Shown piece after piece: positions 19,113 through 47,461 of a stretch of DNA of 64,000 nucleotides (within the stretch, counting starts at the first letter, position 1; the number at the start of each line of letters is the position of its first letter). Below the pieces are notes generated by a model. That model did not search any database, was not told where the DNA came from, and worked only from the letters and a program-made list of their open reading frames with translations. This DNA is from a virus, in IMG/VR virus record IMGVR_UViG_3300042937_001707, positions 14,985-78,984 of that record. One strand, given 5' to 3'. The translations under genes and the position numbers were made by a program.

Positions 19113-22100
19113 TATAACCAATATCTATTTCTCTAATACTTTCGGTGATTTAGTAAGAACCGCAAATAACCTAGTAAACGCTTGGCAATATTTGGGGTTT
19201 TATGATTGGGATAAACCTTCTGGAACTTTTTCTATATCAAGTTCTGGAACTGGGTTTCTTTCCAATACGATATCAGTATTTTCTAGAGAAACTAGGGTAG
19301 AAGGTGTTGGCAGTAGTTTATACGTCCAAAATAATGCTGAAGTGGGGAAAACTCTATCTCTCACAGATAGAGCGAATAACGTAACGTTGTATTCGAACGG
19401 AACTTCAATATTTTCTGGTGGATATCAAAATTATGCTTCTTACTTAACCGGAATTGGTTATGAAAATGTTAACAATAGTTACGGTATAGTTACTCTTGCT
19501 AAATCTCTATTTGCCAATAGCGTAGATATTCTAGAAACAGCCAATGTAAATTTAATACAAGCAAACAATCAAATAATTTATTACAATTTATCTGGGAATA
19601 CTGCACAATTTTCTGCGAACGTTACAGTTGGAAATTTGGTAAGTAATAATTTTATATATGCTGCAAATAATATTTCTACTAATAGAAATTTATTTGTGTC
19701 TGTAAATTCTCATGTTATAGGTTTATCTTATACCGATAGATTGCAGGCAAATACTTCTGCAAATACTAGATATCTTTCTGTAACTGATGACGCCTTTGTA
19801 GATTACTTGCAAGCGAATACAAATTTACAAACAGGGGTTGCTGTTGCAAATACGAGAGTCGTTACTGGTATTGTTCAAGCGAATAATACTGTTATTGCTA
19901 ATACAGTTACTGCTAACTCAATAGTTACTTCGCCAACATTACATGGTAGTAGTAACGTATTCAGCGGATATGTACAAGCTAATACCAGAATCGTTACTGG
20001 TATTGTTCAAGCAAATAATACCGTTATTGCTAATACCGTTTCCGCCAACTCTTTGGTTACTACTCCAACGTTGCATGGTAGCAGTAACGTATTCACCGAT
20101 TATGTTCAAGCTAATACGAGAGTTGTTACAGGTATAGTTCAAGCTAATACTAACATATTTACTGCAACAATCTCTGCTAATAGTTCTATAGTTACTCCTA
20201 CAGTTCAAGCTTCTTCGAACGTTTATACAGGATTTCTTAAAGCAAATAATTTAATTGTTACTGATGTTATTGAATCTCAATCTAGAGTTATAACAGATAC
20301 TGCTTTAGCTAATACTAGAATAATTACAGCGACTTTACAATCTAATAATTCTATACTATCAAACGACATTTTAGCTAACACTAGAGTAGTTACTGGTATT
20401 GTTCAAGCGAACACCCACATATATACCGACTACGCTCAAGCTAACACTAGAGTAGTTACTGGTATTGTTCAAGCTAATACTAACGTAATAACTAATGATG
20501 TTTTAGCAAATACTAGAGTTGTTGCAGGATTCGTTCAAGCAAACAATACCGTAATATCTAATACTATTTCTGCTAATACTGTTGTTACTTCTCCTACTTT
20601 ACATGGTAGTAGTAATGTATTTTCTGGATATGTTCAGGCTAATACTAGAGTTGTAACAGGTATTGTTCAGGCAAATAATATAGTTCATTCTAATACTGTT
20701 TCTGCTAATACTGTTGTTACTTCTCCTACTTTACATGGTAGTAGTAATGTATTCTCTGGATATATTCAGGCTAATACTAGAGTTGTCACTGAAACTGTTC
20801 AATCTAATACTAATGTAATAACTAATGATGTTTTAGCAAATACTAGAGTTGTCACTGAAACTGTTCAATCTAATACTAATGTAATAACTAATGATGTTTT
20901 AGCAAATACTAGAGTTGTGACAGGTATTGTCCAAGCTAATACTAATGTAATAACTAATGATGTTTTAGCAAATACTAGAGTTGTGACAGGTATTGTCCAA
21001 GCTAATACTAGAGTTGTCACTGAAACTGTTCAATCTAATACTAATGTAATAACTAATACTGTTTCAGCTAATTCATTAGTTACTTCTCCTACTTTACACG
21101 GTAGTAGTAACGTATTTACTGCGATTTTGCAAGCAAATAGTGCAGCAAACACTCAAAACCTATCAGTAACTCAGAGAATATTTACAAATGATTTTATATC
21201 TAATACTAACATTTTAGTAGTAAATAATGCAAATACTACCAATTTATACGCATCAAATCTAGTTCAAGCTAATAGTGTAGGATATCTAGATAACAGCCAA
21301 AATCCATCTGTATATAATGTATATTCAAGAGAAGCACTATTCAATAATGCTTCGATAGTTTCAAACATGGTTGTTGGAGGAGACTTAAAAGTTTTAGGGG
21401 CTACTCAGTATGATGGTAAATCAATAAGATTAAGTGCTAACAGCCCTTCTTGGTGGACCAACACCATTCCTGCAGAACTGATTGTTAATAGAAAATTAGA
21501 TGAGGCAAATGGTATATGGTATTCTGCAAACTCTGACGCAGCAATATCTTGGTCCGATCTATCTTTAAGATGGAGAGCAGTCGATGTTCCTAATTCTACC
21601 GCCAACAGTAAAATTTATACTAATTTATTGCTAGAGTTAGATATTGCTGATAATCTAAATGAAACTAGTTCCGTAAGAGTTCCTTCTTCTAGAGTACATT
21701 CTCTAACAAGAACACACGCAAATTCTGCATTCTTAAATTCTAATTCTGCTTATACACATGCAAATTCTGTTTATACACACGCAAATTCAGCAATAACTAT
21801 AGGGACAACGCCAGTATATTTAAATAGAACTAATACAGTTTTTGGTGGTATATCAACATTGTCGGTAACAGGAACAACATTATCTAACTTTGTTGTTGCA
21901 AACACTAATGTAATTTCTCCAATAGTTGTTTCAAACAGCTTACAAGCAAACAATTTTGCTAATACCCAAAATCTTTCTGTAACCCAAACAATATTTACTA
22001 GAGATTTTCGAGCAAACAACGACGCTTTTATTGCTGAAGAAGCAAATGTTAATAATAAATTAGTGGTTTCGGGGTTAACTGGACAAATAGACCTAAAACC

Positions 22101-27788: not shown

Positions 27789-28793
27789 GTGGCGAACACA
27801 GTAATTCAATTAAAGAAATCTATAGTACCTGGAAATGTTCCTAGTAGTTTAGAAAGCGGCGAAATAGCGATTAATACCGCTGACGGTATTTTATTCTATA
27901 AAGATCCTTCTAATGTTATAAGAACCGTAAGAACAGATACCACAACAAACGCATATTCTGTTCTAAATGTAAATTCTTCATTATTAATTGCAACATCCAA
28001 TTCTGATATTTTATCTATAGACTCTACGGGAGCAATAACATTAACTCCAGATTCTGTTAATGATAAATTTACTATTGGAGTAAAATCCGGAACAGTTTTT
28101 GAAGAGGGTGTTGTTCAATTATACGATGGAGTTGATTCGAATTCTATTGTGTTAGTAGCAACAGCAAACGCATTAAACGCTGTCTATAACTTAGCAAATT
28201 TAGCATTTAACAGTTCTGGATCTGGTCCTACATCAACAAACTTAGCGTATCAAGAATTCACAGCCGCAAATAATCAAACAGAATTTTCCATTACAAATGG
28301 ATATAATATAGGTAAAATTAAAGTATTTGTAAATGGTGTACTTTTAAATTCTTCCGACTATACGGCAACAAATGGAACATCTATAATATTATCGTCTCCA
28401 GCACCTTTAGGTGACGACGTTTCAATACAAAAATGGTATAACGATGTAAATGTTGCAAATTCTTATAGTTTAATATATGGAAATATTGATTCGAATAATA
28501 TAATAACTACGACAAATAGCGCAAATCAAGTATTGGATTTATTTTCAACCGCGTTATATAGATCCGTGAAATATCAAATACAAGTCACAAGTTCGACAAG
28601 TTATCAAATAAGTGAATTATTGTTGATTCATGATGGAACCACTTCTTATATTACAGAATATGGTTTAATTACAACAAATGGCGTATTAATGAGTTATGAT
28701 ACAGACGTTTCCGGAGGATCTGTGAGATTATTGATATCTCCTACCAACAATAGCAATAGTATTAAATTCACAAAAACCTCAATTGTAGTATAA
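27789..28793 (+). CDS. Fibre/adaptor protein (Mtd_N-like N-terminus, conserved C-terminal beta domain)
   Basis: GTG start; MANTVIQLKKS...GEIAINTADG; KVFVNGVLL..SDYTATNGTSI; YRSVKYQIQV...LIHDGT..YITEYG. Confidence 0.7.
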   Translation: MANTVIQLKKSIVPGNVPSSLESGEIAINTADGILFYKDPSNVIRTVRTDTTTNAYSVLNVNSSLLIATSNSDILSIDSTGAITLTPDSVNDKFTIGVKSGTVFEEGVVQLYDGVDSNSIVLVATANALNAVYNLANLAFNSSGSGPTSTNLAYQEFTAANNQTEFSITNGYNIGKIKVFVNGVLLNSSDYTATNGTSIILSSPAPLGDDVSIQKWYNDVNVANSYSLIYGNIDSNNIITTTNSANQVLDLFSTALYRSVKYQIQVTSSTSYQISELLLIHDGTTSYITEYGLITTNGVLMSYDTDVSGGSVRLLISPTNNSNSIKFTKTSIVV

Positions 28794-32653: not shown

Positions 32654-35023
32654 ATGGCAACTGCATATAATAGTAAACTTGTTACTGATAATTTGGTATT
32701 ATGTATAGATGCTGCTAATCCAAAAAGTTATCCAGGAACTGGAAATAATTGGTTTAATTTAGTAAAAGGCAATCGTTCAGAAACTATATCCGGAGAAACC
32801 ACTACAAATTTAATGTATTCTTCCGGAACTTTTGTTGGGTCTATTGGAACATTAACGGGTTCTTTTTCAGTGACAACTGTAGAGGCAAATAGTAAATATC
32901 GCGTTCAGTGTAACACTAGTGGGCTAATTAGAATATCAATTCCTAATGGTTTGTTAGTAAACAACCAAACATATACATTATCATACAAATATAAAGTCAT
33001 TTCTGGATTAACCAACTTTTTAATAAACGATTTTTGTGATGTTAATGTTGGCGACAGATTAATTATAGATACAGGCGATTATATTTTTGCTTCAGCAACG
33101 GCGAAAAGAATTACTTATGATTCGACATATAGATTTTTTGATACACCAACATTTCAAGTTGGTGATATTATAGATATTTGGGATATACAAGTAGAACAAA
33201 AAACGTATCCGACTGTTTTTGTAAATGGTATAAGATCCTCTGCAACATCAAATCAAATTTTAACTGGCGGAAATCAAAATTCAGATTTAATCAATGGTCC
33301 ATCATACCAATCTCAAGGGGTAATTGTGTTCGATGGCGTTGATGATTACGTTAAACAAAACCCTATGGCGTTTAAATCAGGAAGTGGGTGGACTCTATCG
33401 TGTTGGATAAGTCCTGTATTTAATTCCACTAAAATAGGAGCTTCTGTATTTTATGCTGTTGAAGGTAATTATCTAGGATACCCTTGTTCTGTCCCACTAA
33501 CAACTCAAACGGATACTACATATATAACACCTAAAAGCTCAATAGGTAGCACTTTTTATATTTGTTCTAACTATGTAACCAATTTTGTTGGTTCAGAAAG
33601 AATCCCTAAAATTTTTAAGATGAATTCTATTTTCACAGCGGTCGATCAAGGATTTAATACAGGTTCTGTAGGATACCTATCCACTCCAGTTCACATAACA
33701 GCATCTACATATTATTCTGGGAAAATATATGTATGCGAAAACCTTAGCCAATATAGTAAATATGGAAAAATAGGATTCAAACGATATAATTCTGATGGAT
33801 CGTTAGATACTGGTTTCGGAACATCTACTTCTGGATTTAATTTTTCTACGGCATTTTCCGCAGAAGACAGTTCAGGAAATATTTATGTTGTTGGCTCCTT
33901 TACTTCTTATAACGGAACCGCAGCAAACCGAATTATTAAATTAAACACTGACGGTTCAATAGATACTTCTTTTGTTTATGGTACTGGGTTTAATAATGTA
34001 GTAACAGCAATTTACATAGATCCAATTAATGGAGGCATATATGTTATAGGAAATTTTACTTCTTATAACGGAACCGCAGCAAACCGAATTATTAAATTAA
34101 CCTCTACTGGGTCGATAGATGCTTCTTTTGTTTATGGTACTGGGTTTAATGATCAAGTCCTTTGTATAGAGTTTGACGAAAACGGAGATTTATATGTTGG
34201 GGGAGGGTTCACTACATATAATGGAACGGCAGTAAATCGCATGGTTAAATTAACCTCTACTGGGTCGATAGATGCTTCTTTTGTTTATGGTACTGGGTTT
34301 AATGGTGTTGTTAGATCAATATCATACAGTTATGACTTTTCATGGTTATATGTTGGGGGAGCGTTTACTACATATAACGGAACCGCAGCAAACCGAATAA
34401 TTACATTAAACACTGACGGGTCAATAGAAACTTCTTTTGTTTATGGTACTGGGTTTGACGGTGCTGTGCTTTCTATATTAGCAGATAGTTCAGGTTTGTT
34501 ATATGTTGGTGGCTCATTCACTACATATCAAGGCAGTGCTGTAAGTAGATTCGTAGGATTAGACATATATGATGGGACTTTTGTAACAGACATATTTGGT
34601 CTTACTTCTGATTTTGAATCTTGTGTAAATCTATCTACAAATTTTTATAATATCAGATATTTAGATGGGTTTGTATTTGCGTGGGTTAACAAAACACCTG
34701 TAGACTTAACTATTATCGGAGCATCGCAAACAATTTTAACAGCCAATGAATTATATGACATTTTTGACGGGAATACCACTATAAATTTAGTGGAATCTAT
34801 GGATACTAATTCTACCTATAAAGCATATTTAAACGGACAATTAGTATGTGAAATTCCAAATGTAGAAAATTCTGGTATTCTTTTATATAATTTGTTTAAT
34901 GACATTTCAACGTCATCTAAATTTCAAGGGAAAGCTTCTAATATTTCTGTATACAGCAAAGCATTATCCGCCACAGAAATTCAACAAAACTTCAACGCTA
35001 CAAGGAGCAGATATGGAATATAA
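32654..35023 (+). CDS. LamG/concanavalin-like protein with inserted delta-60-type beta-propeller repeats
   Basis: LVLCIDAANPKSYPG N-terminus; FDGVDDY; repeats IYVVGSFTSYNGTAANRIIKLNTDGSIDTSF; C-terminal YSKALSATEIQQNFNATRSRYGI. Confidence 0.75.
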   Translation: MATAYNSKLVTDNLVLCIDAANPKSYPGTGNNWFNLVKGNRSETISGETTTNLMYSSGTFVGSIGTLTGSFSVTTVEANSKYRVQCNTSGLIRISIPNGLLVNNQTYTLSYKYKVISGLTNFLINDFCDVNVGDRLIIDTGDYIFASATAKRITYDSTYRFFDTPTFQVGDIIDIWDIQVEQKTYPTVFVNGIRSSATSNQILTGGNQNSDLINGPSYQSQGVIVFDGVDDYVKQNPMAFKSGSGWTLSCWISPVFNSTKIGASVFYAVEGNYLGYPCSVPLTTQTDTTYITPKSSIGSTFYICSNYVTNFVGSERIPKIFKMNSIFTAVDQGFNTGSVGYLSTPVHITASTYYSGKIYVCENLSQYSKYGKIGFKRYNSDGSLDTGFGTSTSGFNFSTAFSAEDSSGNIYVVGSFTSYNGTAANRIIKLNTDGSIDTSFVYGTGFNNVVTAIYIDPINGGIYVIGNFTSYNGTAANRIIKLTSTGSIDASFVYGTGFNDQVLCIEFDENGDLYVGGGFTTYNGTAVNRMVKLTSTGSIDASFVYGTGFNGVVRSISYSYDFSWLYVGGAFTTYNGTAANRIITLNTDGSIETSFVYGTGFDGAVLSILADSSGLLYVGGSFTTYQGSAVSRFVGLDIYDGTFVTDIFGLTSDFESCVNLSTNFYNIRYLDGFVFAWVNKTPVDLTIIGASQTILTANELYDIFDGNTTINLVESMDTNSTYKAYLNGQLVCEIPNVENSGILLYNLFNDISTSSKFQGKASNISVYSKALSATEIQQNFNATRSRYGI
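33880..34560 (+). repeat. About 52-aa delta-60-like tandem repeats
   Basis: Four copies of cttcttttgtttatggtactgggttt; acggaaccgcagcaaaccgaat is also repeated. Confidence 0.85.
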
Positions 35024-35267: not shown

Positions 35268-36005
35268 GTGAGTTTGGGTCACGGAGCAAGTATTGTTACT
35301 AATGGATTAGTTTTATGTTTAGATGCTGCTAATCCAAAAAGTTATCCTGGATCAGGTGCTGTTTGGTATGATTTGAGTGGAAATGGTAATCACGCTTCTT
35401 TAGTAAATGGACCAGTTTATTCTACAGAAAATAATGGCAAATTTGTATTAGACGGAATAAATGATTATGTAGAAACGATTAATCCTCTAAATTTATCAAC
35501 AACCAATGCGGTAACAGTTTTATTTTCAGTAAAAGTATTATCCTATGGGACTTCTCCAAAAGTTCTATATGAATTAGGTCCAAATTTTAACAGTTATACC
35601 GATTGTTTTGTAGCATCATTTTCTGATAATTCTGTTGGAGCGAATTATGATATTTTTGCTAGTGTTAGAGGAAATGTTGGATATAATATAGGAGTATATT
35701 CTAAAACTTTATTAAACGATTCCAATTGGCATTCTAATATTATAATACACGACACTTCACAAACTTCCAAAGAAAATCTTATATACAGCAACGGTGTTAT
35801 AAAAGACGAAATATCTAACCCCCTTTCTGGATATGCTAATAATACTAATAATTTCGGTAACAGAAAATTTTATATAGGTTGTAGGGGAGGAGCTAGTTTG
35901 TTTGGCAATATTGAAATATCGAGTGTTATGGCGTATAACAGAGCATTATCCGCAGCAGAAATTCAACAAAATTTTAACGCTTCTCGCAATCGCTTCGGGA
36001 TATAA
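35268..36005 (+). CDS. LamG/concanavalin-like lectin protein
   Basis: LVLCLDAANPKSYPGSG..WYDLSGNGN, LDGINDY, YNRALSAAEIQQNFNA; paralogous to 32654..35023. Confidence 0.8.
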   Translation: MSLGHGASIVTNGLVLCLDAANPKSYPGSGAVWYDLSGNGNHASLVNGPVYSTENNGKFVLDGINDYVETINPLNLSTTNAVTVLFSVKVLSYGTSPKVLYELGPNFNSYTDCFVASFSDNSVGANYDIFASVRGNVGYNIGVYSKTLLNDSNWHSNIIIHDTSQTSKENLIYSNGVIKDEISNPLSGYANNTNNFGNRKFYIGCRGGASLFGNIEISSVMAYNRALSAAEIQQNFNASRNRFGI

Positions 36006-36038: not shown

Positions 36039-36659
36039 ATGGCATTAAACGAACAAAATATAGTAATTCAACCTAATGTTGGTATAGCAAATACTAACCC
36101 AAAAATTACGTTTTCCGCAGCAGACGCATCAACAAATGCTAAGAATATTGTTCTTAATGTATACCCAACTTCAAACGGAACACTTTCTTTTGAAGGTAAC
36201 GCCGGACAATTATTCTCTATCACAGACTCAATGTCTGGAACAATATTCTCTGTTAATGATATTTCTGGTATTCCTTCTATAGAAGTTTTAGACACTGGAT
36301 TAGTAAAACTTGCCCAATATTCTGGCGACGTTCAAATCGGACCTTCTACAGTTTTAATTTCGGAAAATTATACTACCACAACCACAAATCAAATTACACT
36401 AGACAGCTTTCCCGCAGCAACATATAGAACAGCAACTTATGAAGTGCAAATGACTTCATCTACAAATTATCATACAATAACACTAAAACTAATACATAAC
36501 GGCACAACAGTTTATCTCGCTCAATATGGAGAAATATTCACAAATGCTTCTCTAGGAACATTTGATGCTACAATTACTTCCGGTAATATGAATTTATTAT
36601 TTACTCCAACCAATGCTACTACCGTAGTAAAATTAACAAGACAACTAATCTTGGTATAA
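36039..36659 (+). CDS. Fibre adaptor/structural protein
   Basis: LSFEGNAGQLFSITDSMSGTIFSVNDISGIPSIEV; C-terminal domain paralogous to that of 27789..28793. Confidence 0.65.
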   Translation: MALNEQNIVIQPNVGIANTNPKITFSAADASTNAKNIVLNVYPTSNGTLSFEGNAGQLFSITDSMSGTIFSVNDISGIPSIEVLDTGLVKLAQYSGDVQIGPSTVLISENYTTTTTNQITLDSFPAATYRTATYEVQMTSSTNYHTITLKLIHNGTTVYLAQYGEIFTNASLGTFDATITSGNMNLLFTPTNATTVVKLTRQLILV

Positions 36660-36660
36660 A

Positions 36661-38349
36661 ATGGCAACAAATAAACCCTTTGAAATAAAAAACGGATTAA
36701 TTGTTGGGGATACTCTTGTCGCAAATTCAACTGGTCATTGGGTAGGTCCATCAACAAATATAACCGGAGATCAAGGATTTCAAGGAAATATTGGGATAAC
36801 TGGAAATGTTGGATTTACTGGAATAGCAGGATTCCAAGGTAGACAAGGAGTACAAGGTTCTACTGGTCCTCAAGGCGTACAAGGTGCTTTGGGTGCTACT
36901 GGTAATATTGGAGTTCAGGGTGCTATCGGAATAGCAGGATTTCAAGGTAGGCAGGGCGTTCAAGGTTCTACTGGTCCTCAAGGCGTACAAGGCGTGGTTG
37001 GTGCTACTGGAAATGCTGGAGTTCAGGGCGCTATCGGAATATCAGGATTTCAAGGTAGACAAGGAATACAAGGTTCTACTGGTCCTCAAGGCGTTCAGGG
37101 AGCAGTTGGTGCTACTGGAAATAGTGGAATAGCAGGATTCCAAGGCAGACAAGGGTTTCAAGGCACACAAGGTCCACAGGGACCACAAGGAGTTCAGGGA
37201 GCAGTTGGTGCTACTGGTAATGCTGGTGTGCAAGGTGCTATTGGAATAGCAGGATTTCAAGGTAGACAAGGAATACAAGGTTCTACTGGACCACAAGGAG
37301 CACAAGGCGCTGTAGGTGCTACTGGTAATGTTGGTGTGCAAGGTGCTATTGGAATAGCAGGATTTCAAGGCAGACAAGGGTTTCAAGGTTCTACTGGTCC
37401 ACAAGGAGCACAAGGCGCTGTAGGTGCTACTGGTAATGCTGGAATAGCAGGATTTCAAGGAAGACAAGGATTCCAAGGCGCACAAGGACCACAAGGACCA
37501 CAAGGCGTTCAAGGCGCTGTTGGTGCTACTGGTAATACTGGAGTTCAGGGTGCTATTGGAATAGCAGGATTCCAAGGTAGACAAGGAGTCCAAGGTCCAC
37601 AGGGACCACAAGGTGTACAAGGTGCTGTTGGCGCTACTGGACCGCAAGGAGTTCAAGGGACAGTTGGAATAGCAGGATTTCAAGGTAGACAAGGAGTCCA
37701 AGGTCCACAGGGACCACAAGGCGTACAGGGAGCAGTTGGCGCCACTGGTCCTCAAGGGGTTGCTGGAATAGCAGGATTCCAAGGCAGACAAGGATTCCAA
37801 GGCGCACAAGGTCCGCAAGGAGCACAAGGAGCACAAGGCGCTGTAGGTGCTACTGGTCCTCAAGGAGTTGCTGGAATAGCAGGATTCCAAGGCAGACAAG
37901 GATTCCAAGGAGCAAATTTAATAATTCCTGCCAATAATCTTAGTACATTAGGAGTAAATGCTGCACTTGGCGGAACTGGAGAAATACGAGCATCTGGAAA
38001 TATCATAGCAGCATACTCAGATCAAAGATTAAAGAAAAATATAAACAAAATTGAAAATTGTTTAGAAAAAGTATTAAGTATAAGTGGAATTTATTTTACT
38101 CAAAATAAGTTAGCAGAAAAGTTTGGATATAACGATTATAGTAAAAAAATAGGATTGATAGCACAGCAAATAAAACCTTTTGCTCCTGAAATAGTTAAAC
38201 CTGCTCCTTTTGATACGGATTCCGATGGAAATAGCATTTCTGGGGAAAATTACATAACAGTACAATATGAAAAATTAATTCCAATAATAGTAGAAGCTAT
38301 AAAAGAACAACAAAAGCAAATTAAAGAACTTTTAACATTAAGAAACTAA
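36661..38349 (+). CDS. Collagen-like fibre protein 1 with S74 chaperone
   Basis: 128 Gly-X-Y triplets (aa 36-419, nt 36766-37917); [10 protein letters not shown]...APFD...[14 protein letters not shown]. Confidence 0.92.
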
Positions 38350-38353
38350 TCAG

Positions 38354-40063
38354 ATGGCAGAACAATCTAAACTAATAATAAAAAATGGATTAGTTGTTGG
38401 AAATACTTCAGTTATTTCCAACAATTCTGTTTGGATTGCTTCTACAACGAACATAAAAGGTCCGCAAGGACCACAAGGATTTCAAGGCGTTCAAGGATTC
38501 CAAGGACCACAAGGAGCACAAGGACCACAAGGGTCTCAAGGAATTGCGGGAGTTACAGGACCACAAGGCATACAAGGGGTTGTTGGTAGACAAGGGTTCC
38601 AAGGTCCACAAGGATTTCAAGGAGCGCAAGGACCACAGGGAGCACAAGGTGCTGTCGGTGCTACTGGACCCCAAGGAGTTCAAGGCGCTGCAAGTTCTAT
38701 TGCAGGGTTCCAAGGTCCACAAGGGTTTCAAGGCGCTCAAGGTCCACAAGGTGCACAAGGTGCTGTCGGTGCTACTGGTCCACAAGGAGTTCAAGGAGCA
38801 ATCGGCGTAACAGGAGTCCAAGGAGTCCAAGGTCCACAGGGACCACAAGGTGCACAAGGTGCAGTTGGTGCTACTGGACCACATGGAGTTCAAGGAGCAG
38901 TTGGCATATCTGGATTCCAAGGTAGACAAGGAGTCCAAGGAGCGCAAGGACCACAGGGAGCACAAGGTGCTGTCGGTGCTACTGGACCCCAAGGAGTTCA
39001 AGGCGCTGCAAGTTCTATTGCAGGATTTCAAGGCAGACAAGGGTTTCAAGGCGCACAAGGTCCACAGGGCGCACAAGGAGCAGTTGGTATTACTGGTCCT
39101 CAAGGAGTTCAAGGAGCAATCGGCGTAACAGGAGTCCAAGGAGTCCAAGGTCCACAGGGACCACAAGGTGCACAAGGTGCAGTTGGCGTTACTGGACCAC
39201 AAGGAGTTCAAGGTGCTGCAAGTTCTATTGCAGGATTTCAAGGCAGACAAGGGTTTCAAGGCGCACAAGGTCCACAGGGCGCACAAGGAGCAGTTGGCGT
39301 TACTGGACCACAAGGAGTTCAAGGCGCTGCAAGTTCTATTGCAGGATTTCAAGGCAGACAAGGAGTCCAAGGTCCACAAGGTCCACAGGGCGCACAAGGA
39401 GCAGTTGGCGTTACTGGACCACAAGGAGTTCAAGGTGCTGCAAGTTCTATTGCAGGATTTCAAGGCAGACAAGGAGTCCAAGGTCCACAGGGACCACAAG
39501 GTGCACAAGGTGCAGTTGGCGTTACTGGACCACAAGGAGTTCAAGGAGCAGTTGGAATAGCAGGATTCCAAGGTAGACAAGGAGTCCAAGGTCCACAAGG
39601 TCCGCAGGGCGTTCAAGGGATATCTAATGTTTTGCAAACATCAGTAACTGCGTTAGGAGTTGGAACCCCAGCAGGACCAACAGGAGAAATAAGAGCAACC
39701 GGAAACATAACTTCGTATTATTCTGACATAAGGTTAAAAGATAATATAGAATCTATAAAAAATGCTAGTGAAAAATTATATCAATTAAATGGAATTTTTT
39801 ATAAACAAAATAAGTTTGCAGAAACCTTTGGATATAAAGATTATAGCAAACAAATAGGAGTTATAGCACAAGAAGTTCAAAAAATTATACCAGAAGCTGT
39901 TGCATTAGCACCATTTGATATTGATGAAAATCACAATAGCATCACAGGTTTAAATTTATTAACGGTTAATTATGAAAAATTAATTCCATTAATAATAGAA
40001 ACTATAAAAGAACAACAAAAAGAAATAGATTTATTAATAAAAGAAATAAAATATGGCAGCTAA
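38354..40063 (+). CDS. Collagen-like fibre protein 2 with S74 chaperone
   Basis: Gly-X-Y aa 36-424 (nt 38459-39625) with five GAASSIAG interruptions; [10 protein letters not shown]. Confidence 0.92.
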
Positions 40064-41735
40064 TAATAATTTCGTTGTAAAAAATGGCATATCTATAAAT
40101 CTAAATGAAATAATTTCATCAGAAGGCATTTGGACTGGTCCCGCTTCAAGCTATTCCGGATCACAAGGACCACAAGGAGCACAAGGACCACAAGGCGCTC
40201 AGGGTGCTGTGGGTGCTGCTGGTCCACAAGGAGTTCAAGGAGTAGAAGGATTCCAAGGTCCACAAGGATTTCAAGGCGCTCAAGGTCCACAAGGTCCACA
40301 GGGAGCACAAGGCGCAGTTGGTGCTACTGGTCCACAAGGCATACAAGGGGTGGCAGGGTTCCAAGGTCCACAAGGATTCCAAGGCGCTCAAGGTCCACAA
40401 GGTCCACAAGGCGCTCAAGGCGCAGTTGGTGCTATTGGACCACAGGGCATTCAAGGGGTAGCAGGATTTCAAGGTCCACAAGGATTTCAAGGCGCTCAAG
40501 GCGCTCAGGGTGCTGTCGGTGCTACTGGTCCTCAAGGAGTACAAGGTGCTGCAAGTTCGATTGCGGGGTTCCAAGGTCCACAAGGATTCCAAGGCGCTCA
40601 AGGTCAACAAGGACCACAAGGCGCTCAAGGCGCAGTTGGTGCTATTGGACCACAGGGCATTCAAGGGGTAGCAGGATTTCAAGGTCCACAAGGATTTCAA
40701 GGAGCGCAAGGTCCACAAGGTCCACAAGGCGCTCAAGGGGCAGTTGGCGTTACCGGACCACAAGGAGTTCAAGGGGTGGCAGGGTTCCAAGGTCCACAAG
40801 GATTTCAAGGTGCTCAAGGCGCTCAGGGTGCTGTCGGTGCTACTGGTCCTCAAGGAGTACAAGGTGCTGCAAGTTCGATTGCGGGGTTCCAAGGTAGACA
40901 AGGATTTCAAGGCGCTCAAGGTCCACAAGGACCACAAGGCGCTCAAGGCGCTGTAGGTGCTACTGGTCCTCAAGGAGTTGCTGGAATAGCAGGATTCCAA
41001 GGTAGACAAGGATTCCAAGGCGCTCAAGGTCCACAGGGCGCTCAAGGAGCACAAGGCGCTGTAGGTGCTACTGGTCCTCAAGGAGTTGCTGGAATAGCAG
41101 GATTCCAAGGTAGGCAAGGATTCCAAGGCGCTCAAGGTCCACAGGGAGCACAGGGGGCAGTTGGTGTTACTGGACCGCAAGGAGTTCAAGGAGCGGCTAG
41201 TTCAATTGCAGGATTTCAAGGCAGACAAGGAGTTCAAGGTCCACAGGGTCCACAGGGAGCACAGGGGGCAGTTGGTGCTACTGGTCCTCAAGGAGTACAA
41301 GGAGCGGCTAGCAATGTGGTAACTGAAGTTACAGCACTAGGAGTTAATACTATAGCAGGAACAACAGGAGAAATAAGAGCAACTGGACAAATTACTGCAT
41401 ATTATTCTGATAAAAGATTAAAACAAGTTTTAGGAAATGTTGACAATTGTTTAGAAAAGATAAGTAAAATACATGGTGTATATTACGAACAAAACGAATT
41501 AGCTAATTCATTTGGATATAAAGACTCTTCAAGACAAATAGGATTTATAGCACAAGAAATACAAGAAGTGCTACCAGAAGCAGTAAAAATTGCCCCTTTT
41601 GATTCTAATAAATATGGACATAGTATTTCTGGAGAAAAATATTTAACCGTACTATACTCAAAAATAGTACCGTTATTAATAGAAGCATTAAAAGAACAGA
41701 AAATACAGATAGATGAACTAAAAACAAAAAATTGA
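40053..41735 (+). CDS. Collagen-like fibre protein 3 with S74 chaperone
   Basis: Gly-X-Y aa 36-419 (nt 40158-41309) with three GAASSIAG interruptions; [10 protein letters not shown]. Confidence 0.92.
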
Positions 41736-41743
41736 GGAATATT

Positions 41744-42316
41744 ATGAAAGGTGAATGGTGTTATTTTAAATCATATTTTGATAAAGATACTTGCGAAAAA
41801 ATAATCAGAGATGTTCAATCCATTCCATCACAAGATGCTCTTGTTGGTAATATCGATGCTTTCGCTGATTATAAAAATAGAAGAAGTAAAATAAAATTTA
41901 TTCATAGTTCAAATTGGAGATTTGCGTATATATTTGATGCATTATGGAAAGCAGCAATAAGTGCAAATAATGATTTTTTTGACATACACATTACTAGATT
42001 AAATTTCATTCAATTCGCAGAATATAGTCACGAAGACCAAGGAGAATATAAAAACCATCACGACGTTTTTTGGTTAAACAATGATCCCGTTTATCATAGA
42101 AAACTTTCTTGTGTAATCCAACTATCAGACTCTACTGAATATGAAGGTGGAGATTTTGAGTTAGTAGATGTATCAACATATCCTGATGCTTCTGAGATTA
42201 GGCAACAAGGATCGACTATATTTTTTCCTTCATTTTTTACACATAGAGCAAATCCAGTAATAAGAGGAACTAGATATAGTATTGCTGCATGGTTTGAAGG
42301 TCCGAAATGGAGATAA
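41744..42316 (+). CDS. 2OG-Fe(II) oxygenase (prolyl-hydroxylase-like)
   Basis: HHD...RKLSCVIQLS..EYEGGDF...FPSFFTHRANPVIRGTRYSIAAW: HxD...H iron triad and RxS 2OG-binding motif. Start at ATG 41744 after GAGG. Confidence 0.88.
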   Translation: MKGEWCYFKSYFDKDTCEKIIRDVQSIPSQDALVGNIDAFADYKNRRSKIKFIHSSNWRFAYIFDALWKAAISANNDFFDIHITRLNFIQFAEYSHEDQGEYKNHHDVFWLNNDPVYHRKLSCVIQLSDSTEYEGGDFELVDVSTYPDASEIRQQGSTIFFPSFFTHRANPVIRGTRYSIAAWFEGPKWR

Positions 42317-42317
42317 T

Positions 42318-43040
42318 ATGCACCCAACCATACATTATAATGAACCGTTTGATTACTACATTATAGATGATTTTTTAGAACCATCTATCGCAAAAAAGAT
42401 ATCAGAAGAATTTATCCCATTTGAATCCACACATTGGTTCGATTATAATAATCCATTAGAAATAAAAAAAACTTTAAACAATTGGTATCATTTTCCAGAA
42501 ACCACTTATAAGTTTTTTTCTTATCTAAATTCAAAAGAATTCGTAGAAATAATTCAAAATATAACAAAAACAAATAATCTATATACTGATATCGGATTAC
42601 ATGGTGCTGGCTGGCACATTCATGGTAACGGTGGGAAATTGAATGTACATCTAGATTATTCAATTCACCCAAAATTAAAATTACAAAGAAAATATAATTT
42701 TATAATATATCTATCACAGGAATGGAATCCAAAATGGGGAGGTAATTTAGAATTTTGGTCACACGATTTTCTAAACAAAAAACCAAAAGAAAAAATTGCC
42801 CAAGTGGATTGTATATTCAATAGAGCAGTAATTTTTGACACTACCAAAAATTCTTGGCATGGGTTTAACGATCCCATAACTTGCCCAAATAATACATATA
42901 GAAAAAGTATTGCTTGTTATTACCTAACTGACCCAGAAGAAATCACAGAGGAACGATACAGAGCATTATATTCAGCATCAAAATCTCAAGAGAATGATAG
43001 AAACATTGAACAATTGATTAAAAATAGAAGTAAACTATGA
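42318..43040 (+). CDS. 2OG-Fe(II) oxygenase (Tpa1/Ofd1-like prolyl hydroxylase family)
   Basis: LHGAGWH..GGKLNVHLD...WGGNLEFW...FNRAVIFDT..SWHG...RKSIA. Start at 42318 after GGAG. Confidence 0.85.
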   Translation: MHPTIHYNEPFDYYIIDDFLEPSIAKKISEEFIPFESTHWFDYNNPLEIKKTLNNWYHFPETTYKFFSYLNSKEFVEIIQNITKTNNLYTDIGLHGAGWHIHGNGGKLNVHLDYSIHPKLKLQRKYNFIIYLSQEWNPKWGGNLEFWSHDFLNKKPKEKIAQVDCIFNRAVIFDTTKNSWHGFNDPITCPNNTYRKSIACYYLTDPEEITEERYRALYSASKSQENDRNIEQLIKNRSKL

Positions 43041-44755
43041 ATAAAAAATGTAAAATTGTTATGATTACCATGTTTAAGAATGAAGCAAGATCCATAGAAA
43101 GAATGCTAAATTCTTGTTTACCTTTTGTAGATTACTATGTTCTTCAGAACAACGGATCGACAGACGGTTCCGATCAAATAGTAAAAGATTTCTTGATTAA
43201 TAACGAGTTATCCGGAACTTTATATGATGTAGAAGAAGGTTGGGTTGGATTTGGATGGAATAGAGATCATTTAATTCAAACATGTCAAGATATTGATCAT
43301 GGATGTGATTGGATTTTAAAGATGGATTGCGACGAAGTTCTAGAAATTGACAGCAATTTTAATTGGGAGTTGTTAAGTGATAAATCTACCCAAGCATTTC
43401 ATATTCCTGCAGTAAGTGGAACTTGTGTATATTATAGAGCATGGATGTGGAACGCAAACCTTCCTTGGAGATTTAATCACGATACTTGCCACGAAACAAT
43501 ATATTGCGAAATTCCGGAAATAGATAAAAACTTTGTGTGTAAAGACTTACCAAAATCTTTTAGACAAGTAGGATATAACGAAGGACAAAGTTGGTCGGTT
43601 CCTACAAAATTTATTTCAGACTCTTTAATCTTAGAAGAAAAAATGATTAAAGAAAACACAATACATTCCGATATATACCATTTTTGGTATATAGGCAAAA
43701 GTTATGCAGATGCTTATCCATCAACAGCATTTCCTCTGGGAAAAACGCAGCAGAAAGAATATGCAAGAAGATGTATTTACTATTTTACTGAATATTTAAA
43801 TTTAATACATGATTTTGAAAATACGAAAAAAGCAAAATTTATAGACGAAACTTCTTACATGTCACTAATTTTAATGGCAGAGGCATATATATTCTTAAAT
43901 AAAGAAGACAACGCAATAGAGTGTTATATTCTTGCAGAATCTTTTGCTCCAAAAAGAAATGATCATCTTTTTGGATTAGCAAGAATTTATAAACGTTTGA
44001 AGCAATATGAAGAAATGTTACAAATCACTTCTGTAATGATTAACCCAGAAAGAAAAAACCCTTTCCCAGAATATTGTAATTTTATAGATTCTTCTTTATA
44101 TATCAATGAAGAAAATAATGTCGTAGAAGAACTTCATAATTTTGCATTATCACATAATACAAAAGAACAACATATTCCATTACCATTTTATATAAATTTA
44201 AATAAAGATAAAAATTTATTTGTAGTTGATAATTTTTATACCAATCCAGATGATGTCAGAGATTTTGCATTAAATTTTGTTGAATATAAAGAAGATTTAA
44301 ATTGGTATAAAGGGTTAAGATCTACAGTAACATATAGACCAGATGGTATAAAAGAAGCATTTGAAGAAATAATAGGAAAAAAGATTTATAATTTCGAAGA
44401 ACACGGATTTAATGGAGTTTTTCAGATAACAAGCGCAAAAGATCCCCAAGTATATCATTATGATGCACAAAAATGGGCAGCAATGATATATTTAACCCCA
44501 AATTCTCCGCTAGAAAGCGGAACAAGAACCCATAGATCCAAATTAAACGGAACAAAACACGCATCAGAACCAAACGTTGATTTTGCATTTAATGGCAATT
44601 TCTATGACAGCACTAAATTTGAAATTATTGATAATGTGGGGAATATATACAATAGATTAGTAATAATGGATGCTCAAAATATCCATTCTGCTGGTCCATA
44701 TTTTGGCTCTGCTATTCATGATAGTAGATTAACTCATTTATTTTTCTTCGATTAA
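43037..44755 (+). CDS. Glycosyltransferase family 2 + TPR-like helices + C-terminal 2OG-oxygenase-like domain
   Basis: MITMFKNEARSIERML, GSTDGS, MDCDE (DxD); helical middle; C-terminal VVDNFY..PD.VR...HYD..WAAMIYLTP...NRLVI...HSA. Confidence 0.8.
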   Translation: MNKKCKIVMITMFKNEARSIERMLNSCLPFVDYYVLQNNGSTDGSDQIVKDFLINNELSGTLYDVEEGWVGFGWNRDHLIQTCQDIDHGCDWILKMDCDEVLEIDSNFNWELLSDKSTQAFHIPAVSGTCVYYRAWMWNANLPWRFNHDTCHETIYCEIPEIDKNFVCKDLPKSFRQVGYNEGQSWSVPTKFISDSLILEEKMIKENTIHSDIYHFWYIGKSYADAYPSTAFPLGKTQQKEYARRCIYYFTEYLNLIHDFENTKKAKFIDETSYMSLILMAEAYIFLNKEDNAIECYILAESFAPKRNDHLFGLARIYKRLKQYEEMLQITSVMINPERKNPFPEYCNFIDSSLYINEENNVVEELHNFALSHNTKEQHIPLPFYINLNKDKNLFVVDNFYTNPDDVRDFALNFVEYKEDLNWYKGLRSTVTYRPDGIKEAFEEIIGKKIYNFEEHGFNGVFQITSAKDPQVYHYDAQKWAAMIYLTPNSPLESGTRTHRSKLNGTKHASEPNVDFAFNGNFYDSTKFEIIDNVGNIYNRLVIMDAQNIHSAGPYFGSAIHDSRLTHLFFFD

Positions 44756-44757
44756 TT

Positions 44758-46014
44758 ATGAAATTTAGCATTATAACCCCAGAACATAATAAAAATAATC
44801 CGTATTTGATGGAATTGTTCGAATCCATAGAAAACCAAACTTATGAAAATTGGGAATGGGTAATATTATTAAATAATGGTTGCGAATTCGAAGACCTTCC
44901 AGAACAAATTTTATACCATGATAAAGTAAATGTATACAAACTAGAAGAAACCAATTCAAATATTGGATTTATAAAAAATAAAGCATTTCATCTTGGGTCC
45001 GGAGATGTTTTAGTAGAAGTTGATCATGATGATATATTAATAAAAAATTGTTTAGAAAAATTATACGAAGTATATCAAGATGAAAACATGGGATTCGTAT
45101 ATAGCGATAATGCCGTCTTACATATGACCGATGAATTTTCCCCATATGACGCAAATCAAGGGTGGGAATATTCTATTTATAATTGGAAAGGTCGAGATTT
45201 AATTTCTATGAAAAGTTTCGAACCATCTTCTCAAAGTTTAGGTTATATTTGGTATGCTCCAGATCATGTCAGATCTTGGAGGTCTAATGTCTATAAAGAA
45301 ATTGGAGGACACAATCCAGAATTATCAGTATGCGATGATCATGAATTATGTATTAGAACATATCTACACACTAAAATGAAAAGAATTCCGGAAGTTCTTT
45401 ATATCTATAGAATTACCGGGGAAAATACTTGGTTGGAAAGAAATCAAGAAATACAACAAAAAACAATAGAATTATTCAATAATTATATTCAACTTTTAGC
45501 AGAAAAAGATTGCGAAGAAAAAGGATTATTGAAAATTGATTTGGGAGGGGGTTTAAATCCGTATAAAGATTATAAAACCGTTGATATCACAGAATCTGCG
45601 GATTTTCAATACGATTTAAATGAAGGGATACCGTTACCAGATAATAGCGTAGGAGTTATCAATGCCAGTCATATATTAGAACATTTAAAAGATCCTATCA
45701 AATCTATGAGCGAAATTCATAGGGTGTTATGTCATGGTGGATGGGCTTTTATAGAAATTCCAAGCACGGATGGAAGAGGAGCATTCCAAGACCCCACACA
45801 TGTAAGTTTCTGGAACGAAAATAGTTTTTTATATTATACCGATAAATATCTTGCTAATTTTATAAATAATAAATATATAAGATTTCAAGAATATTATAAA
45901 CAAACATATTTTCCAAATGAATGGTTACAACAAATAAATGTTTGTGTTACTTCCGCATATTTAACAGTTATTAAAGACGATTCTATCCGATACCCCGGAT
46001 TTTTAAAAATATAA
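44758..46014 (+). CDS. Glycosyltransferase family 2 fused to class I SAM-dependent methyltransferase
   Basis: FSIITP...SIENQTYENWEWVI, VDHDD, DDHEL; C-terminal IDLGGG, ASHILEHL, EIHRVLCHGG. Confidence 0.85.
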   Translation: MKFSIITPEHNKNNPYLMELFESIENQTYENWEWVILLNNGCEFEDLPEQILYHDKVNVYKLEETNSNIGFIKNKAFHLGSGDVLVEVDHDDILIKNCLEKLYEVYQDENMGFVYSDNAVLHMTDEFSPYDANQGWEYSIYNWKGRDLISMKSFEPSSQSLGYIWYAPDHVRSWRSNVYKEIGGHNPELSVCDDHELCIRTYLHTKMKRIPEVLYIYRITGENTWLERNQEIQQKTIELFNNYIQLLAEKDCEEKGLLKIDLGGGLNPYKDYKTVDITESADFQYDLNEGIPLPDNSVGVINASHILEHLKDPIKSMSEIHRVLCHGGWAFIEIPSTDGRGAFQDPTHVSFWNENSFLYYTDKYLANFINNKYIRFQEYYKQTYFPNEWLQQINVCVTSAYLTVIKDDSIRYPGFLKI

Positions 46015-46507: not shown

Positions 46508-47461
46508 ATGACAATGGTAGCGAGTGGATATATTGAATTAGGTCCAAACGCAGCAGCAGCTACACCAAACACCTCAATTGGAACAGAGTTAAAAAGAACT
46601 GCATATGCGTCAACAAACTTAACAGAAACAGATTGTAGATATTTAGGTGGAATCAACACAGGACAAATAGGGTTTTCTAATTTTTATTCAAAATATGTGA
46701 TACAAGGACAAACTTTTGCAACTAGCACCAGTGGAAATTGGACAGTGCCAACAGGAGTTTATTATGTCAGCATATTATGTATTGGCGCTGGCGGCGGAGG
46801 TGCAGCGCTTTCTGGAAGCACCACTTATTCTGGAGGCGGAGGTGCATTATCATATACAAATAACATACCAGTAACACCAGGAGAAGTTTTATCATATGTT
46901 GCAGCACCTATAACCGCAAGACAAGCGCAAGGAGGAACGTCTTCTGTTTCTAGGGGGGCAACTGTTCTTGTAAGTGCTGCTGGAGGAAGCCAATATGCAA
47001 CAGGAGGTCAAGCTTCTGCTGGAGTTGGATCTGTTAAATATTCTGGAGGAAATGGGAATTCTTATACAGGTATAGGATCTGCTGGCGGTGGAGGTGCAGC
47101 CGGATATTCTGGAGTTGGAGGAACCGGAGGAAACCCATCCACACAAGCGGGAACTGCTGGATCTGGAGGAGGTGGCGGAGGTGGCGGAGGGTCGTCTTCA
47201 TTCAGTACTGGTGGAGGCGGAGGAGGAGTAGGGAATATCGGAGAAGGACCAAGTGGTGCTGCTAGTGGGACAAACGGAGGAGCAGGAAAGGGCGGTTCCT
47301 ATGGAACAGATGGAGTTGGTGGATTTCTTTTAGGTGGTGCTGGTGGAGGATATGGTGGAGGCGGTGGAAGTGATACAACAGGAACCGGTGGTGCTGGTCT
47401 GGTAAGGTTTATGTGGGGAGTAAACAGATATTACCCATCAACAAATACTGGAGTATTATAA
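46508..47461 (+). CDS. Glycine-rich adhesin-like protein (gp38-like polyglycine architecture)
   Basis: N-terminal ...IGFSNFYSK; WTVPTGV...IGAGGGG; many poly-Gly runs. Confidence 0.65.
   Translation: MTMVASGYIELGPNAAAATPNTSIGTELKRTAYASTNLTETDCRYLGGINTGQIGFSNFYSKYVIQGQTFATSTSGNWTVPTGVYYVSILCIGAGGGGAALSGSTTYSGGGGALSYTNNIPVTPGEVLSYVAAPITARQAQGGTSSVSRGATVLVSAAGGSQYATGGQASAGVGSVKYSGGNGNSYTGIGSAGGGGAAGYSGVGGTGGNPSTQAGTAGSGGGGGGGGGSSSFSTGGGGGGVGNIGEGPSGAASGTNGGAGKGGSYGTDGVGGFLLGGAGGGYGGGGGSDTTGTGGAGLVRFMWGVNRYYPSTNTGVL

What the first reader, a model, noticed from the sequence alone, without database searches (positions are those of the whole stretch)
36661..41735. Three divergent collagen paralogues have matched lengths and register, suggesting a heterotrimeric phage collagen
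Seen, counted by hand: all three have a 35-aa N-terminal leader with Gly-X-Y starting at residue 36. The collagen domains are 384, 389 and 384 aa: 128 triplets; 123 triplets plus 5 SSIA units; and 124 plus 3. Counting each SSIA as replacing a GIA triplet gives 128, 128 and 127. The S74 cleavage Ser falls at 453, 457 and 452. The internal repeat units differ (GST/GNA units only in chain 1), so the chains expanded independently yet ended at the same length, about 110 nm at 0.29 nm per residue. Inference: selection for co-assembly as an ABC heterotrimer. Characterised prokaryotic collagens are generally homotrimers.
Basis: partly seen in the sequence, partly recalled or inferred. Interest (0 to 1): 0.8.

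Follow-up and report, generated by a model that had tools for sequence, protein, structure and literature searches.

The report
Three-gene collagen tail fibre, probably heterotrimeric
A T4-like phage carries three old, distinct collagen genes whose helix lengths stay equal to within about one Gly-X-Y triplet while varying more than four-fold among related phages. This is what one mixed three-chain collagen fibre would require, and no such fibre is known outside animals.

Summary
Three adjacent genes (562, 569 and 560 aa) each encode a 35-aa N-terminus, about 128 collagen units, and a self-cleaving Peptidase_S74 domain with its Ser/Lys pair.

- **Conserved triad.** In 19 non-redundant related metagenomic phage loci the genes form three orthologous clades, A, B and C. 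Each locus has one gene of each, in the order A-B-C or B-A-C.
- **Lengths co-vary.** Collagen length ranges from about 45 to 203 units between phages but matches within a phage. Examples are 69/69/69, 99/99/99, 128/128/127, 170/170/169 and 202/202/203. The median difference is 1 unit, against a shuffled expectation of 48 (p<1e-5).
- **Not gene conversion.** Recent gene conversion does not explain this: the repeat arrays are out of phase and share little DNA.
- **Cross-chain avoidance.** Bulky or charged residues of different chains avoid the same helix level. This holds in the window (0 against 13.7 expected) and in 16 other loci (34 against 55; p=0.0006 each).

Points against: helix breaks are not aligned between chains, a few loci are outliers, and there is no biochemical test.

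Best reading is one ABC heterotrimeric collagen fibre registered by its three S74 domains (about 0.55). The main rival is three equal-length homotrimers (about 0.27). No published precedent for a viral or prokaryotic heterotrimeric collagen was found.

The parts
36039..36659 (+). Adaptor protein (206 aa). Residues 1-101 resemble the N-termini of single-chain S74 fibre proteins in other phages, one of which carries collagen. Residues 118-206 form a connector domain found at the C-terminus of the gene just upstream of the triad wherever that gene is present in the fetched DNA.
   Evidence: the C-terminal ~89 aa are 47-64% identical to the C-terminal end of the upstream gene in L005, L165, L176, L183, L088, L193, L203, L205, L206, L184, L189 and L092. 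Those proteins range from 197 to 1360 aa. The N-terminal 100 aa are about 60% identical to the N-termini of L009 and L178 fibre proteins. No Pfam or PHROG hit.
36661..38349 (+). Collagen chain A (562 aa). N-terminal 35 aa at 36661-36765; 128 uninterrupted Gly-X-Y at 36766-37917; 33-aa tip at 37918-38016; S74 domain from Ser453 at 38017-38346.
   Evidence: clade A, support 97/94. A related contig, L085, has the same 562 aa and 128 units.
38354..40063 (+). Collagen chain B (569 aa). Collagen at 38459-39625: 123 triplets plus 5 SSIA breaks, 128 units in all. S74 domain from Ser457 at 39722-40060.
   Evidence: clade B, support 98/94. Starts 4 nt after the stop of A.
40053..41735 (+). Collagen chain C (560 aa). 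Collagen at 40158-41309: 124 triplets plus 3 SSIA breaks, 127 units in all. S74 domain from Ser452 at 41406-41732.
   Evidence: clade C, support 99/94. Overlaps the end of B by 11 nt. C is always the last gene of the triad in relatives.
41732..46014 (+). Syntenic downstream genes: two 2OG-Fe(II) oxygenases (41732-42316, 42282-43040), a GT2 plus DUF6445 protein (43037-44755), and a GT2 plus methyltransferase protein (44758-46014). They may modify the fibre. The link is not shown.
   Evidence: Pfam hits. Same order downstream of the triad in L005, L006, L014 and L088. The GT2/DUF6445 gene also occurs in 40 fetched loci with no collagen gene in the DNA fetched, so it is not strictly tied to collagen.

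Best explanation
The three genes encode the A, B and C chains of a single heterotrimeric collagen fibre of a T4-like myovirus. The steps below are inferred, not shown.

1. The genes are tightly linked and translated together.
2. The three diverged C-terminal S74 domains associate one of each. They set the chain register and nucleate folding of the roughly 110-nm triple helix from the C-terminus towards the N-terminus.
3. Each S74 domain then cuts itself off at its Ser/Lys site. This parallels the procollagen C-propeptide, which selects chains and is later removed.
4. The three 35-aa N-termini (FxxKNG motif) form a plug that docks on the conserved C-terminal connector of the adaptor protein encoded just upstream.

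Because all three chains run through one helix, both ends can only close if each chain has the same number of triplet-equivalents. Every gain or loss of repeats in one gene would then have to be matched in the other two.

Shown here: the domain content, the conserved A/B/C triad, the length co-variation, the lack of conversion, and the cross-chain residue avoidance.
For: 1. **Ancient, obligate triad.** S74-domain tree: clades A (97/94), B (98/94) and C (99/94) each hold one gene per locus. All 19 loci in which all three types can be seen have exactly one of each, in the order ABC or BAC with C last.
2. **Length co-variation.** Rounded units A/B/C:
   - window 128/128/127
   - L165 69/69/69
   - L189 99/99/99
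   - L176 135/136/137
   - L183 150/151/148
   - L213 155/156/155
   - L005 170/170/169
   - L193 179 (plus insert)/183/183
   - L203 187/188/186
   - L086 197/198
   - L206 202/202/203

   Over 45 pairs the mean difference is 2.3 and the median 1, against a shuffled mean of 48 (p<1e-5).
3. **Not conversion or descent.**
   - In-register unit identity is at background.
   - Paralogue DNA 18-mer sharing is 0-16%, and 0% for L086 A/B, which are 197 and 198 units.
4. **Lattice units fit better than residues.** In 5 of 6 loci the break-rich chain matches its partners better in lattice units than in residues. L005 has 509/508/497 residues but 170/170/169 rounded units (170 each if every break counts as one unit). 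L203 C has 584 residues but 186 units.
5. **Residue avoidance.** F, Y, W, R and K of different chains avoid the same unit.
   - Window: 0 against 13.7 expected (p=0.0006). The Phe/Arg clusters appear interleaved B-A-C along the whole length when the positions are read by hand.
   - Replicated in 16 other loci: 34 against 55.1 (p=0.0006).
6. **L193.** By hand count, the 173-aa insert in A and the only 12-aa break in B both begin after unit 147, and 32 units follow each. The flanks are not similar in DNA.
7. **L088 outlier.** The excess 12 units in B are a 99%-identical 108-nt tandem duplication.
8. **Precedent.** Three consecutive fibre genes of virophage DSLV2 form a heterotrimer (PMC12724248).
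Against: - No structural or biochemical test was made.
- From my own knowledge, the characterised S74-bearing fibres (endosialidase, T5 pb1) are homotrimers. [quoted passage not shown]
- Helix breaks of different chains coincide no more often than chance (8 against 8.8 expected). From my own knowledge, breaks in animal heterotrimers are often aligned.
- Many breaks sit in one chain only and are 1, 2 or 4 residues long. L203 C has 22 one-residue insertions. In an ABC helix each would need a bulge or a stretch.
- Outliers exist: L088 B (+12 units), L204 C (-19), L205 A (-7).
- The PA14 inserts in L184 A and B lie 11 units apart.
- Length changes come in modules of about 12 units, so selection for roughly equal length could yield near-exact matches.
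- The helices have almost no acidic residues, so no charge pairs are available to specify register.
Confidence: 0.55

Rival explanations
1. There are three separate homotrimeric collagen fibres (A3, B3, C3), each folded by its own S74 domain. All dock through the same N-terminal plug on the same adaptor socket. Selection keeps them the same length because fibres of one virion must reach the cell surface together. Because length changes come in modules of about 12 units, equal module numbers give near-equal unit counts.
For: - From my own knowledge, characterised S74 fibres are homotrimers. A review says prokaryotic collagens are homotrimers.
- Breaks are not aligned between chains. One-chain breaks such as the 22 single-residue insertions in L203 C are automatically commensurate in a homotrimer.
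- The N-terminal plug motif and the tip sequence are shared by A, B and C.
- PA14 lectin inserts occur in two of the three chains at different levels in L184.
- All chains have a 108-nt module period.
Against: - The match is far tighter than flexible, independent fibres of 40-175 nm should need (median 1 unit, several exact triples).
- The match is in lattice units, not in residues or physical length.
- Independent fibres with separate specificities would be expected to be lost or gained, yet every locus in which all three types can be seen has exactly one A, one B and one C.
- The model predicts no positional dependence between chains, but bulky or charged residues avoid the same level in the window and in the replication set.
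Confidence: 0.27
2. Equal length is a by-product of concerted evolution. Gene conversion or unequal exchange among the tandem paralogues keeps homogenising the collagen arrays, and there is no selection on length and no co-assembly.
For: Collagen domains share more peptide 7-mers within a genome (window 27-55%, L005 about 30%, L014 about 22%) than between orthologues (about 5-20%). DNA 18-mer sharing is 4-16% within some genomes.
Against: - Arrays are not collinear: in-register identity is at background.
- Break patterns differ between chains (0, 5 and 3 breaks in the window; 2, 2 and 12 in L005).
- L086 A and B share 0% of 18-mers yet are 197 and 198 units.
- The flanks of the matching break in L193 A and B are not similar.
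- Partial conversion tracts in out-of-phase arrays would not equalise total counts.
Confidence: 0.05
3. Some other in-register co-assembly occurs. Examples are a parallel bundle of three homotrimeric helices tied at both ends, or mixed stoichiometries such as A2B, rather than one ABC helix.
For: This also explains the equal lattice length and the cross-chain residue avoidance, as staggered lateral packing.
Against: I know of no precedent in phage fibres. Three genes for a three-chain helix is the simpler reading. A bundle would need extra lateral contacts, for which there is no evidence.
Confidence: 0.1

Closest known systems
Phage and prophage collagen-like tail fibre proteins (E. coli O157 prophage EPcl proteins, SPP1 gp12, PHROG 'collagen like minor tail' families)
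   Same: Gly-X-Y triple-helix stalk flanked by non-collagen trimerisation domains in a tail-fibre gene region. There are PHROG tail-fibre hits.
   Different: The collagens characterised so far are homotrimers, as a review states for prokaryotic collagen-like proteins in general (PMC8968730). Here three anciently diverged paralogues are kept as a fixed set with co-varying helix length.
Peptidase_S74 C-terminal intramolecular chaperone domains (endosialidase K1F, T5 pb1, MYRF)
   Same: Pfam PF13884 above cut-off in all three chains. The Ser-x4-Lys pair SDxRLK is conserved. PDB sequence matches to MYRF (7dc3) and a long tail fibre distal subunit (6f45).
   Different: The known examples fold homotrimeric beta-helix or fibre domains (my own knowledge). 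Here the domain follows a collagen helix and exists as three type-specific orthologous versions per phage, which may select chains.
Animal heterotrimeric collagens and C1q (type I, IV, IX; tandem C1qA/C/B genes)
   Same: Distinct chains of matched helix length. A non-collagenous terminal domain would select and register the chains and then be removed, as the procollagen C-propeptide is. Tandem paralogous genes, as for C1q (my own knowledge).
   Different: No homology outside Gly-X-Y. The chains have Pro only at X, Gln-rich Y positions and almost no acidic residues, so no charge pairs. Removal would be by autoproteolysis. Breaks are not aligned between chains.
Virophage DSLV2 tripartite tail fibre (PMC12724248)
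   Same: Three consecutive, same-strand paralogous fibre genes conserved across a lineage. They were shown by co-purification to form a 1:1:1 heterotrimer.
   Different: A gp37-tip-like fold with the phage tail collar domain, about 16 nm long. It has no collagen and no S74 domain.

Membership tests
Collagen triple-helix repeat proteins (PF01391) | Long uninterrupted Gly-X-Y repeats | tested here: met
   128, 123 and 124 triplets. Pfam Collagen E-values are 8e-62, 5.5e-53 and 1e-57.
Collagen triple-helix repeat proteins (PF01391) | Actual formation of a triple helix | not testable with these tools
   Needs CD, melting or structural work.
Peptidase_S74 intramolecular chaperone (PF13884) | Domain match above the curated cut-off at the C-terminus | tested here: met
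   38.3, 53.5 and 48.9 bits against a cut-off of 22. The profile hits MYRF and a long tail fibre distal subunit in the PDB.
Peptidase_S74 intramolecular chaperone (PF13884) | Catalytic Ser and Lys five residues apart (Ser-x4-Lys) | tested here: met
   SDQRLK, SDIRLK and SDKRLK at Ser453, Ser457 and Ser452. The 'SD.RLK' consensus holds in all three clades across 66 sequences.
Peptidase_S74 intramolecular chaperone (PF13884) | Autocleavage and release after trimer folding | not testable with these tools
   Needs expression and SDS-PAGE or mass spectrometry.
Heterotrimeric (ABC) collagens | Three distinct chain types conserved as a set | tested here: met
   Three orthologous clades, one of each per locus, in all 19 loci where all three types can be seen.
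Heterotrimeric (ABC) collagens | Helical domains of equal length in register | tested here: met
   Median within-locus difference of 1 unit over a range of 45-203 units; p<1e-5.
Heterotrimeric (ABC) collagens | Interruptions at corresponding positions in the chains | tested here: not met
   8 coincidences against 8.8 expected. There are isolated matches only (L193, L005, L183, L184).
Heterotrimeric (ABC) collagens | Physical co-assembly of the three chains in one helix | not testable with these tools
   The single complex-prediction job was not used: any S74 paralogue set would score by likeness to solved homotrimers.
T4-like myovirus tail-fibre module | Location among baseplate and tail structural genes of a T4-like phage | tested here: met
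   Baseplate wedge genes lie upstream. Head-closure, sheath stabiliser, sheath, portal, scaffold and major capsid genes lie downstream. The capsid protein is about 64% identical to those of Melnitz, pelagimyophages and DLP_6.

The most novel reading that the evidence does not exclude
This would be the first natural heterotrimeric collagen outside animals. An ABC triple helix of 40-175 nm would have its chain selection and register set by three diverged, self-cleaving S74 domains. It would have no hydroxyproline and no charge pairs, and would tolerate many one-chain breaks and even lectin domains inserted in single chains.
Probability: 0.5. Interest if true: 0.85.

Novelty: new variant of a known kind. 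Interest (0 to 1): 0.8.

Why it matters
Collagen heterotrimers are regarded as an animal speciality, and they are hard to make recombinantly because chain choice and stagger must be controlled.

A phage system would give a compact natural toolkit for making defined ABC collagens in bacteria. It would rest on three small self-removing domains that pick one chain of each kind and register helices of up to about 600 residues.

It would also show that phage fibres can be asymmetric along their whole length. A single chain could then carry a receptor-binding insert, such as the PA14 domains seen in a relative.

Even if the chains form separate homotrimers, the near-exact co-variation of three repeat arrays is an unusually clean natural example of selection on repeat number. 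It is directly testable by co-expression.

Tried and rejected
1. **Megablast against isolate phages.** Searching the locus found nothing. A protein search with the A-type S74 domain found at best 49% identity (Pseudomonas phage Milchi long tail fibre). No cultured phage carries the triad.
2. **Gene conversion as the cause of equal length.** Rejected.
3. **Alignment of helix breaks between chains.** No enrichment (8 against 8.8 expected). The striking single cases (L193, L005, L183, L184) are about what chance gives across the whole set.
4. **Arg/Lys-only avoidance.** Not significant.
5. **Phe/Tyr/Trp-only avoidance in the replication set.** Weak (p=0.065 at the exact unit, 0.012 within ±1 unit).
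6. **Type-specific residues in the S74 domains.** These exist. No obvious complementary charge pattern was seen, and without a trimer model they cannot be placed at an interface.
7. **Complex prediction of A+B+C S74 domains.** Not run. With one job there is no AAA, BBB or CCC comparison, and a pass would only reflect likeness to solved S74 homotrimers.
8. **2OG oxygenases as prolyl hydroxylases.** PDB sequence search gives only weak PiuC-type hits. The conserved GT2/DUF6445 gene also occurs in 40 fetched loci with no collagen gene, so a collagen-maturation operon is not established.
9. **Naive unit counting.** Counting every break as one unit mismatches L203 and L205. Rounding each break to the nearest whole triplet fixes these but worsens L204.
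10. **Read mapping.** Not attempted, because the tool turns away long repeats.
Full report
**What is in the window**

Three adjacent plus-strand ORFs encode proteins with the same plan. They lie at 36661-38349 (562 aa), 38354-40063 (569 aa) and 40053-41735 (560 aa).

- Each has a 35-aa N-terminus and then a collagen domain: 128 triplets; 123 triplets plus 5 SSIA breaks; 124 triplets plus 3 SSIA breaks.
- A tip of about 33 aa follows, then a Pfam Peptidase_S74 domain starting at Ser453, Ser457 and Ser452. The SDxRLK Ser/Lys pair is intact in all three.
- Outside the helix the proteins are truly divergent. C-terminal domains are about 52% identical and N-termini 23-43%.
- A is separated from B by 4 nt, and B overlaps C by 11 nt.

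The genes sit in the structural module of a T4-like myovirus. Baseplate wedge genes lie upstream. Head closure, sheath stabiliser, sheath, portal, scaffold and major capsid genes lie downstream. The capsid protein is about 64% identical to those of Stenotrophomonas phage DLP_6, the Melnitz phages and pelagimyophages. The source is an IMG/VR record estimated to be 47% complete. No cultured phage has an orthologous triad.

**The triad is old and fixed**

I used the three S74 domains as a profile and fetched related loci from viral and metagenome contigs. A second search used the conserved downstream GT2/DUF6445 gene as an anchor.

- A maximum-likelihood tree of the S74 domains gives three well-supported clades: A 97/94, B 98/94, C 99/94. 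Each holds one gene from each locus.
- New loci were assigned to these clades by best match.
- In all 19 loci where all three types can be seen there is exactly one A, one B and one C. They are tightly packed, in the order A-B-C or B-A-C, with C always last.
- The duplications therefore predate the divergence of this whole phage group. Each type keeps its own conserved motifs.

**Lengths co-vary**

I counted helix length in lattice units. Each triplet counts as one unit. Each break is rounded to the nearest whole number of triplets. Globular inserts are set aside.

| Locus | A / B / C |
|---|---|
| L165 | 69 / 69 / 69 |
| L200 | 86 / - / 87 |
| L189 | 99 / 99 / 99 |
| L006 | - / 100 / 99 |
| L174 | 115 / - / 115 |
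| window | 128 / 128 / 127 |
| L176 | 135 / 136 / 137 |
| L014 | - / 143 / 142 |
| L183 | 150 / 151 / 148 |
| L213 | 155 / 156 / 155 |
| L005 | 170 / 170 / 169 |
| L184 | 169 / 170 / 173 |
| L193 | 179 (plus insert) / 183 / 183 |
| L203 | 187 / 188 / 186 |
| L205 | 175 / 182 / 181 |
| L086 | 197 / 198 / - |
| L206 | 202 / 202 / 203 |

- Over 45 within-locus pairs the mean difference is 2.3 units and the median is 1. Shuffling loci within chain type gives 48 (p<1e-5).
- The first six loci alone gave r=0.99.
- Records from several different metagenomes give the same lengths. This holds for L005/L168/L169, for L200/L201/L202, and for window chain A against L085. Assembly artefacts are therefore not a general explanation.

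There are two clear outliers.
- **L088 B** has 76 units against 61 and 63. It carries a 99%-identical 108-nt tandem duplication. Removing one copy gives 64.
- **L204 C** has 168 units. It differs from its sister L203 (186) by three 19-residue repeats.

**Conversion does not explain it**

- The arrays are built from modules of about 12 triplets (108 nt), but they are out of phase between chains. Unit-by-unit identity at offset 0 is at background in every locus.
- Break patterns differ between chains: 0, 5 and 3 breaks in the window; 2, 2 and 12 in L005.
- DNA 18-mer sharing between paralogues is 0-16%. It is 0% for L086 A and B, which are 197 and 198 units.
- Some compositional co-evolution within genomes is visible. 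Peptide 7-mer sharing is higher within genomes than between orthologues.

**The match is in lattice units rather than residues**

In loci where one chain is rich in breaks, that chain matches its partners in lattice units and not in residue number.
- L005 has 509, 508 and 497 residues but 170, 170 and 169 units (170 each if every break counts as one unit).
- L203 C has 584 residues but 186 units, against 187 and 188.
- This holds in 5 of 6 such loci.

**A second, independent signal**

In the window the Phe/Arg-rich motif recurs about every 12 units in each chain. When the positions are read by hand, the three chains' motifs interleave B-A-C along the whole helix.
- F, Y, W, R and K never fall on the same unit in two chains: 0 against 13.7 expected under random relative phase (p=0.0006).
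- This was a post hoc observation, so I tested the same statistic on the 16 other loci. It replicated: 34 against 55.1 (p=0.0006), and 126 against 164 within ±1 unit (p=0.002).
- Separate homotrimers predict no dependence between chains. Common descent predicts a positive dependence, not a negative one.

**Evidence that does not support the heterotrimer**

- Breaks of different chains coincide no more than chance (8 against 8.8 expected).
- The matches that do occur are therefore anecdotes. In L193, by hand count, the 173-aa insert in A and the only 12-aa break in B both start after unit 147, and 32 units follow each; the flanks are dissimilar in DNA. L005 has breaks at units 162, 163 and 163.
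- Many breaks sit in one chain only and are 1, 2 or 4 residues long. In an ABC helix each needs a bulge or a stretch.
- In L184 the PA14/GLEYA lectin inserts in A and B lie 11 units apart.
- Because length changes come in modules of about 12 units, selection for roughly equal length would already give near-equal counts.
- From my own knowledge, characterised S74 fibres are homotrimers. [quoted passage not shown]

**Context**

- The gene just upstream of every triad ends in a conserved domain of about 89 aa, which corresponds to residues 118-206 of the window's 206-aa protein. Upstream of that domain the protein varies from about 110 to about 1270 aa.
- The N-terminal 100 aa of the 206-aa protein match the N-termini of single-chain S74 fibre proteins in other phages, one of which (L178) carries collagen.
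- This fits an adaptor whose C-terminal socket takes the FxxKNG N-terminal plugs of the collagen chains. That docking is inferred, not tested.
- Two 2OG oxygenases and two glycosyltransferase fusions follow the triad in the same order. The GT2/DUF6445 gene also occurs in 40 fetched loci with no collagen gene. The oxygenase has only weak PiuC-type PDB matches.

**Reading**

| Explanation | Confidence |
|---|---|
| One ABC heterotrimeric collagen fibre, with chains selected and registered by the three S74 domains, which then cleave themselves off | about 0.55 |
| Three equal-length homotrimers | about 0.27 |
| Another in-register co-assembly | about 0.10 |
| Concerted evolution alone | about 0.05 |

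**Literature**

- Searches found no report of a heterotrimeric viral or prokaryotic collagen.
- The nearest precedent is the heterotrimeric, non-collagen tail fibre made from three consecutive genes in virophage DSLV2 (PMC12724248).
- The domain combination of collagen plus S74 is itself known. The conserved three-chain set with co-varying length is new.

Noticed in passing
window 19102-24969: A fourth S74-bearing protein (1955 aa, no collagen) lies in the same structural module. It is probably another large fibre.
   Followed up: partly
window 46508-47461: A 317-aa protein with about 19 Gly-X-Y triplets (phrog_4474, function unknown) lies downstream of the glycosyltransferases. It has no S74 domain.
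   Followed up: no
window 27789-28793: The C-terminal 124 aa are 39% identical to the connector domain of the adaptor (36039-36659). This suggests a second socket-type protein in the same phage.
   Followed up: partly
L184:4834-5301 and L184:2185-2685: PA14/GLEYA carbohydrate-binding domains are inserted inside the collagen helices of chains A and B, but not C, of a related triad. They begin after units 73 and 62.
   Followed up: partly
L193:5289-5807: A 173-aa globular insert with no Pfam match sits in chain A. By hand count, chain B has its only 12-aa non-collagen break at the same unit (after unit 147), and chain C is uninterrupted.
   Followed up: partly
L088:8476-8738: A 99%-identical 108-nt tandem duplication (12 triplets) in chain B accounts for the one large length mismatch in that triad. 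It could be a recent slip or an assembly artefact.
   Followed up: partly
L191:7017-8306 and L191:13036-14652 (also L192, L188): More distant relatives have two separated collagen genes with the same N-terminal plug and similar lengths (82 and 79 triplets). One has a distant S74 domain and the other has none.
   Followed up: no
window 41732-46014 and syntenic loci: Two 2OG-Fe(II) oxygenases, a GT2 plus DUF6445 protein and a GT2 plus methyltransferase protein follow the triad in conserved order. The GT2/DUF6445 gene also occurs in 40 fetched loci with no collagen gene in the DNA fetched.
   Followed up: partly
window 32654-35023 and 35268-36005: Two proteins with concanavalin-like (Laminin_G_3) domains lie just upstream of the adaptor. 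One also has DUF5122 beta-propeller repeats. The number and sequence of these genes differ in the near-identical strain L085.
   Followed up: no
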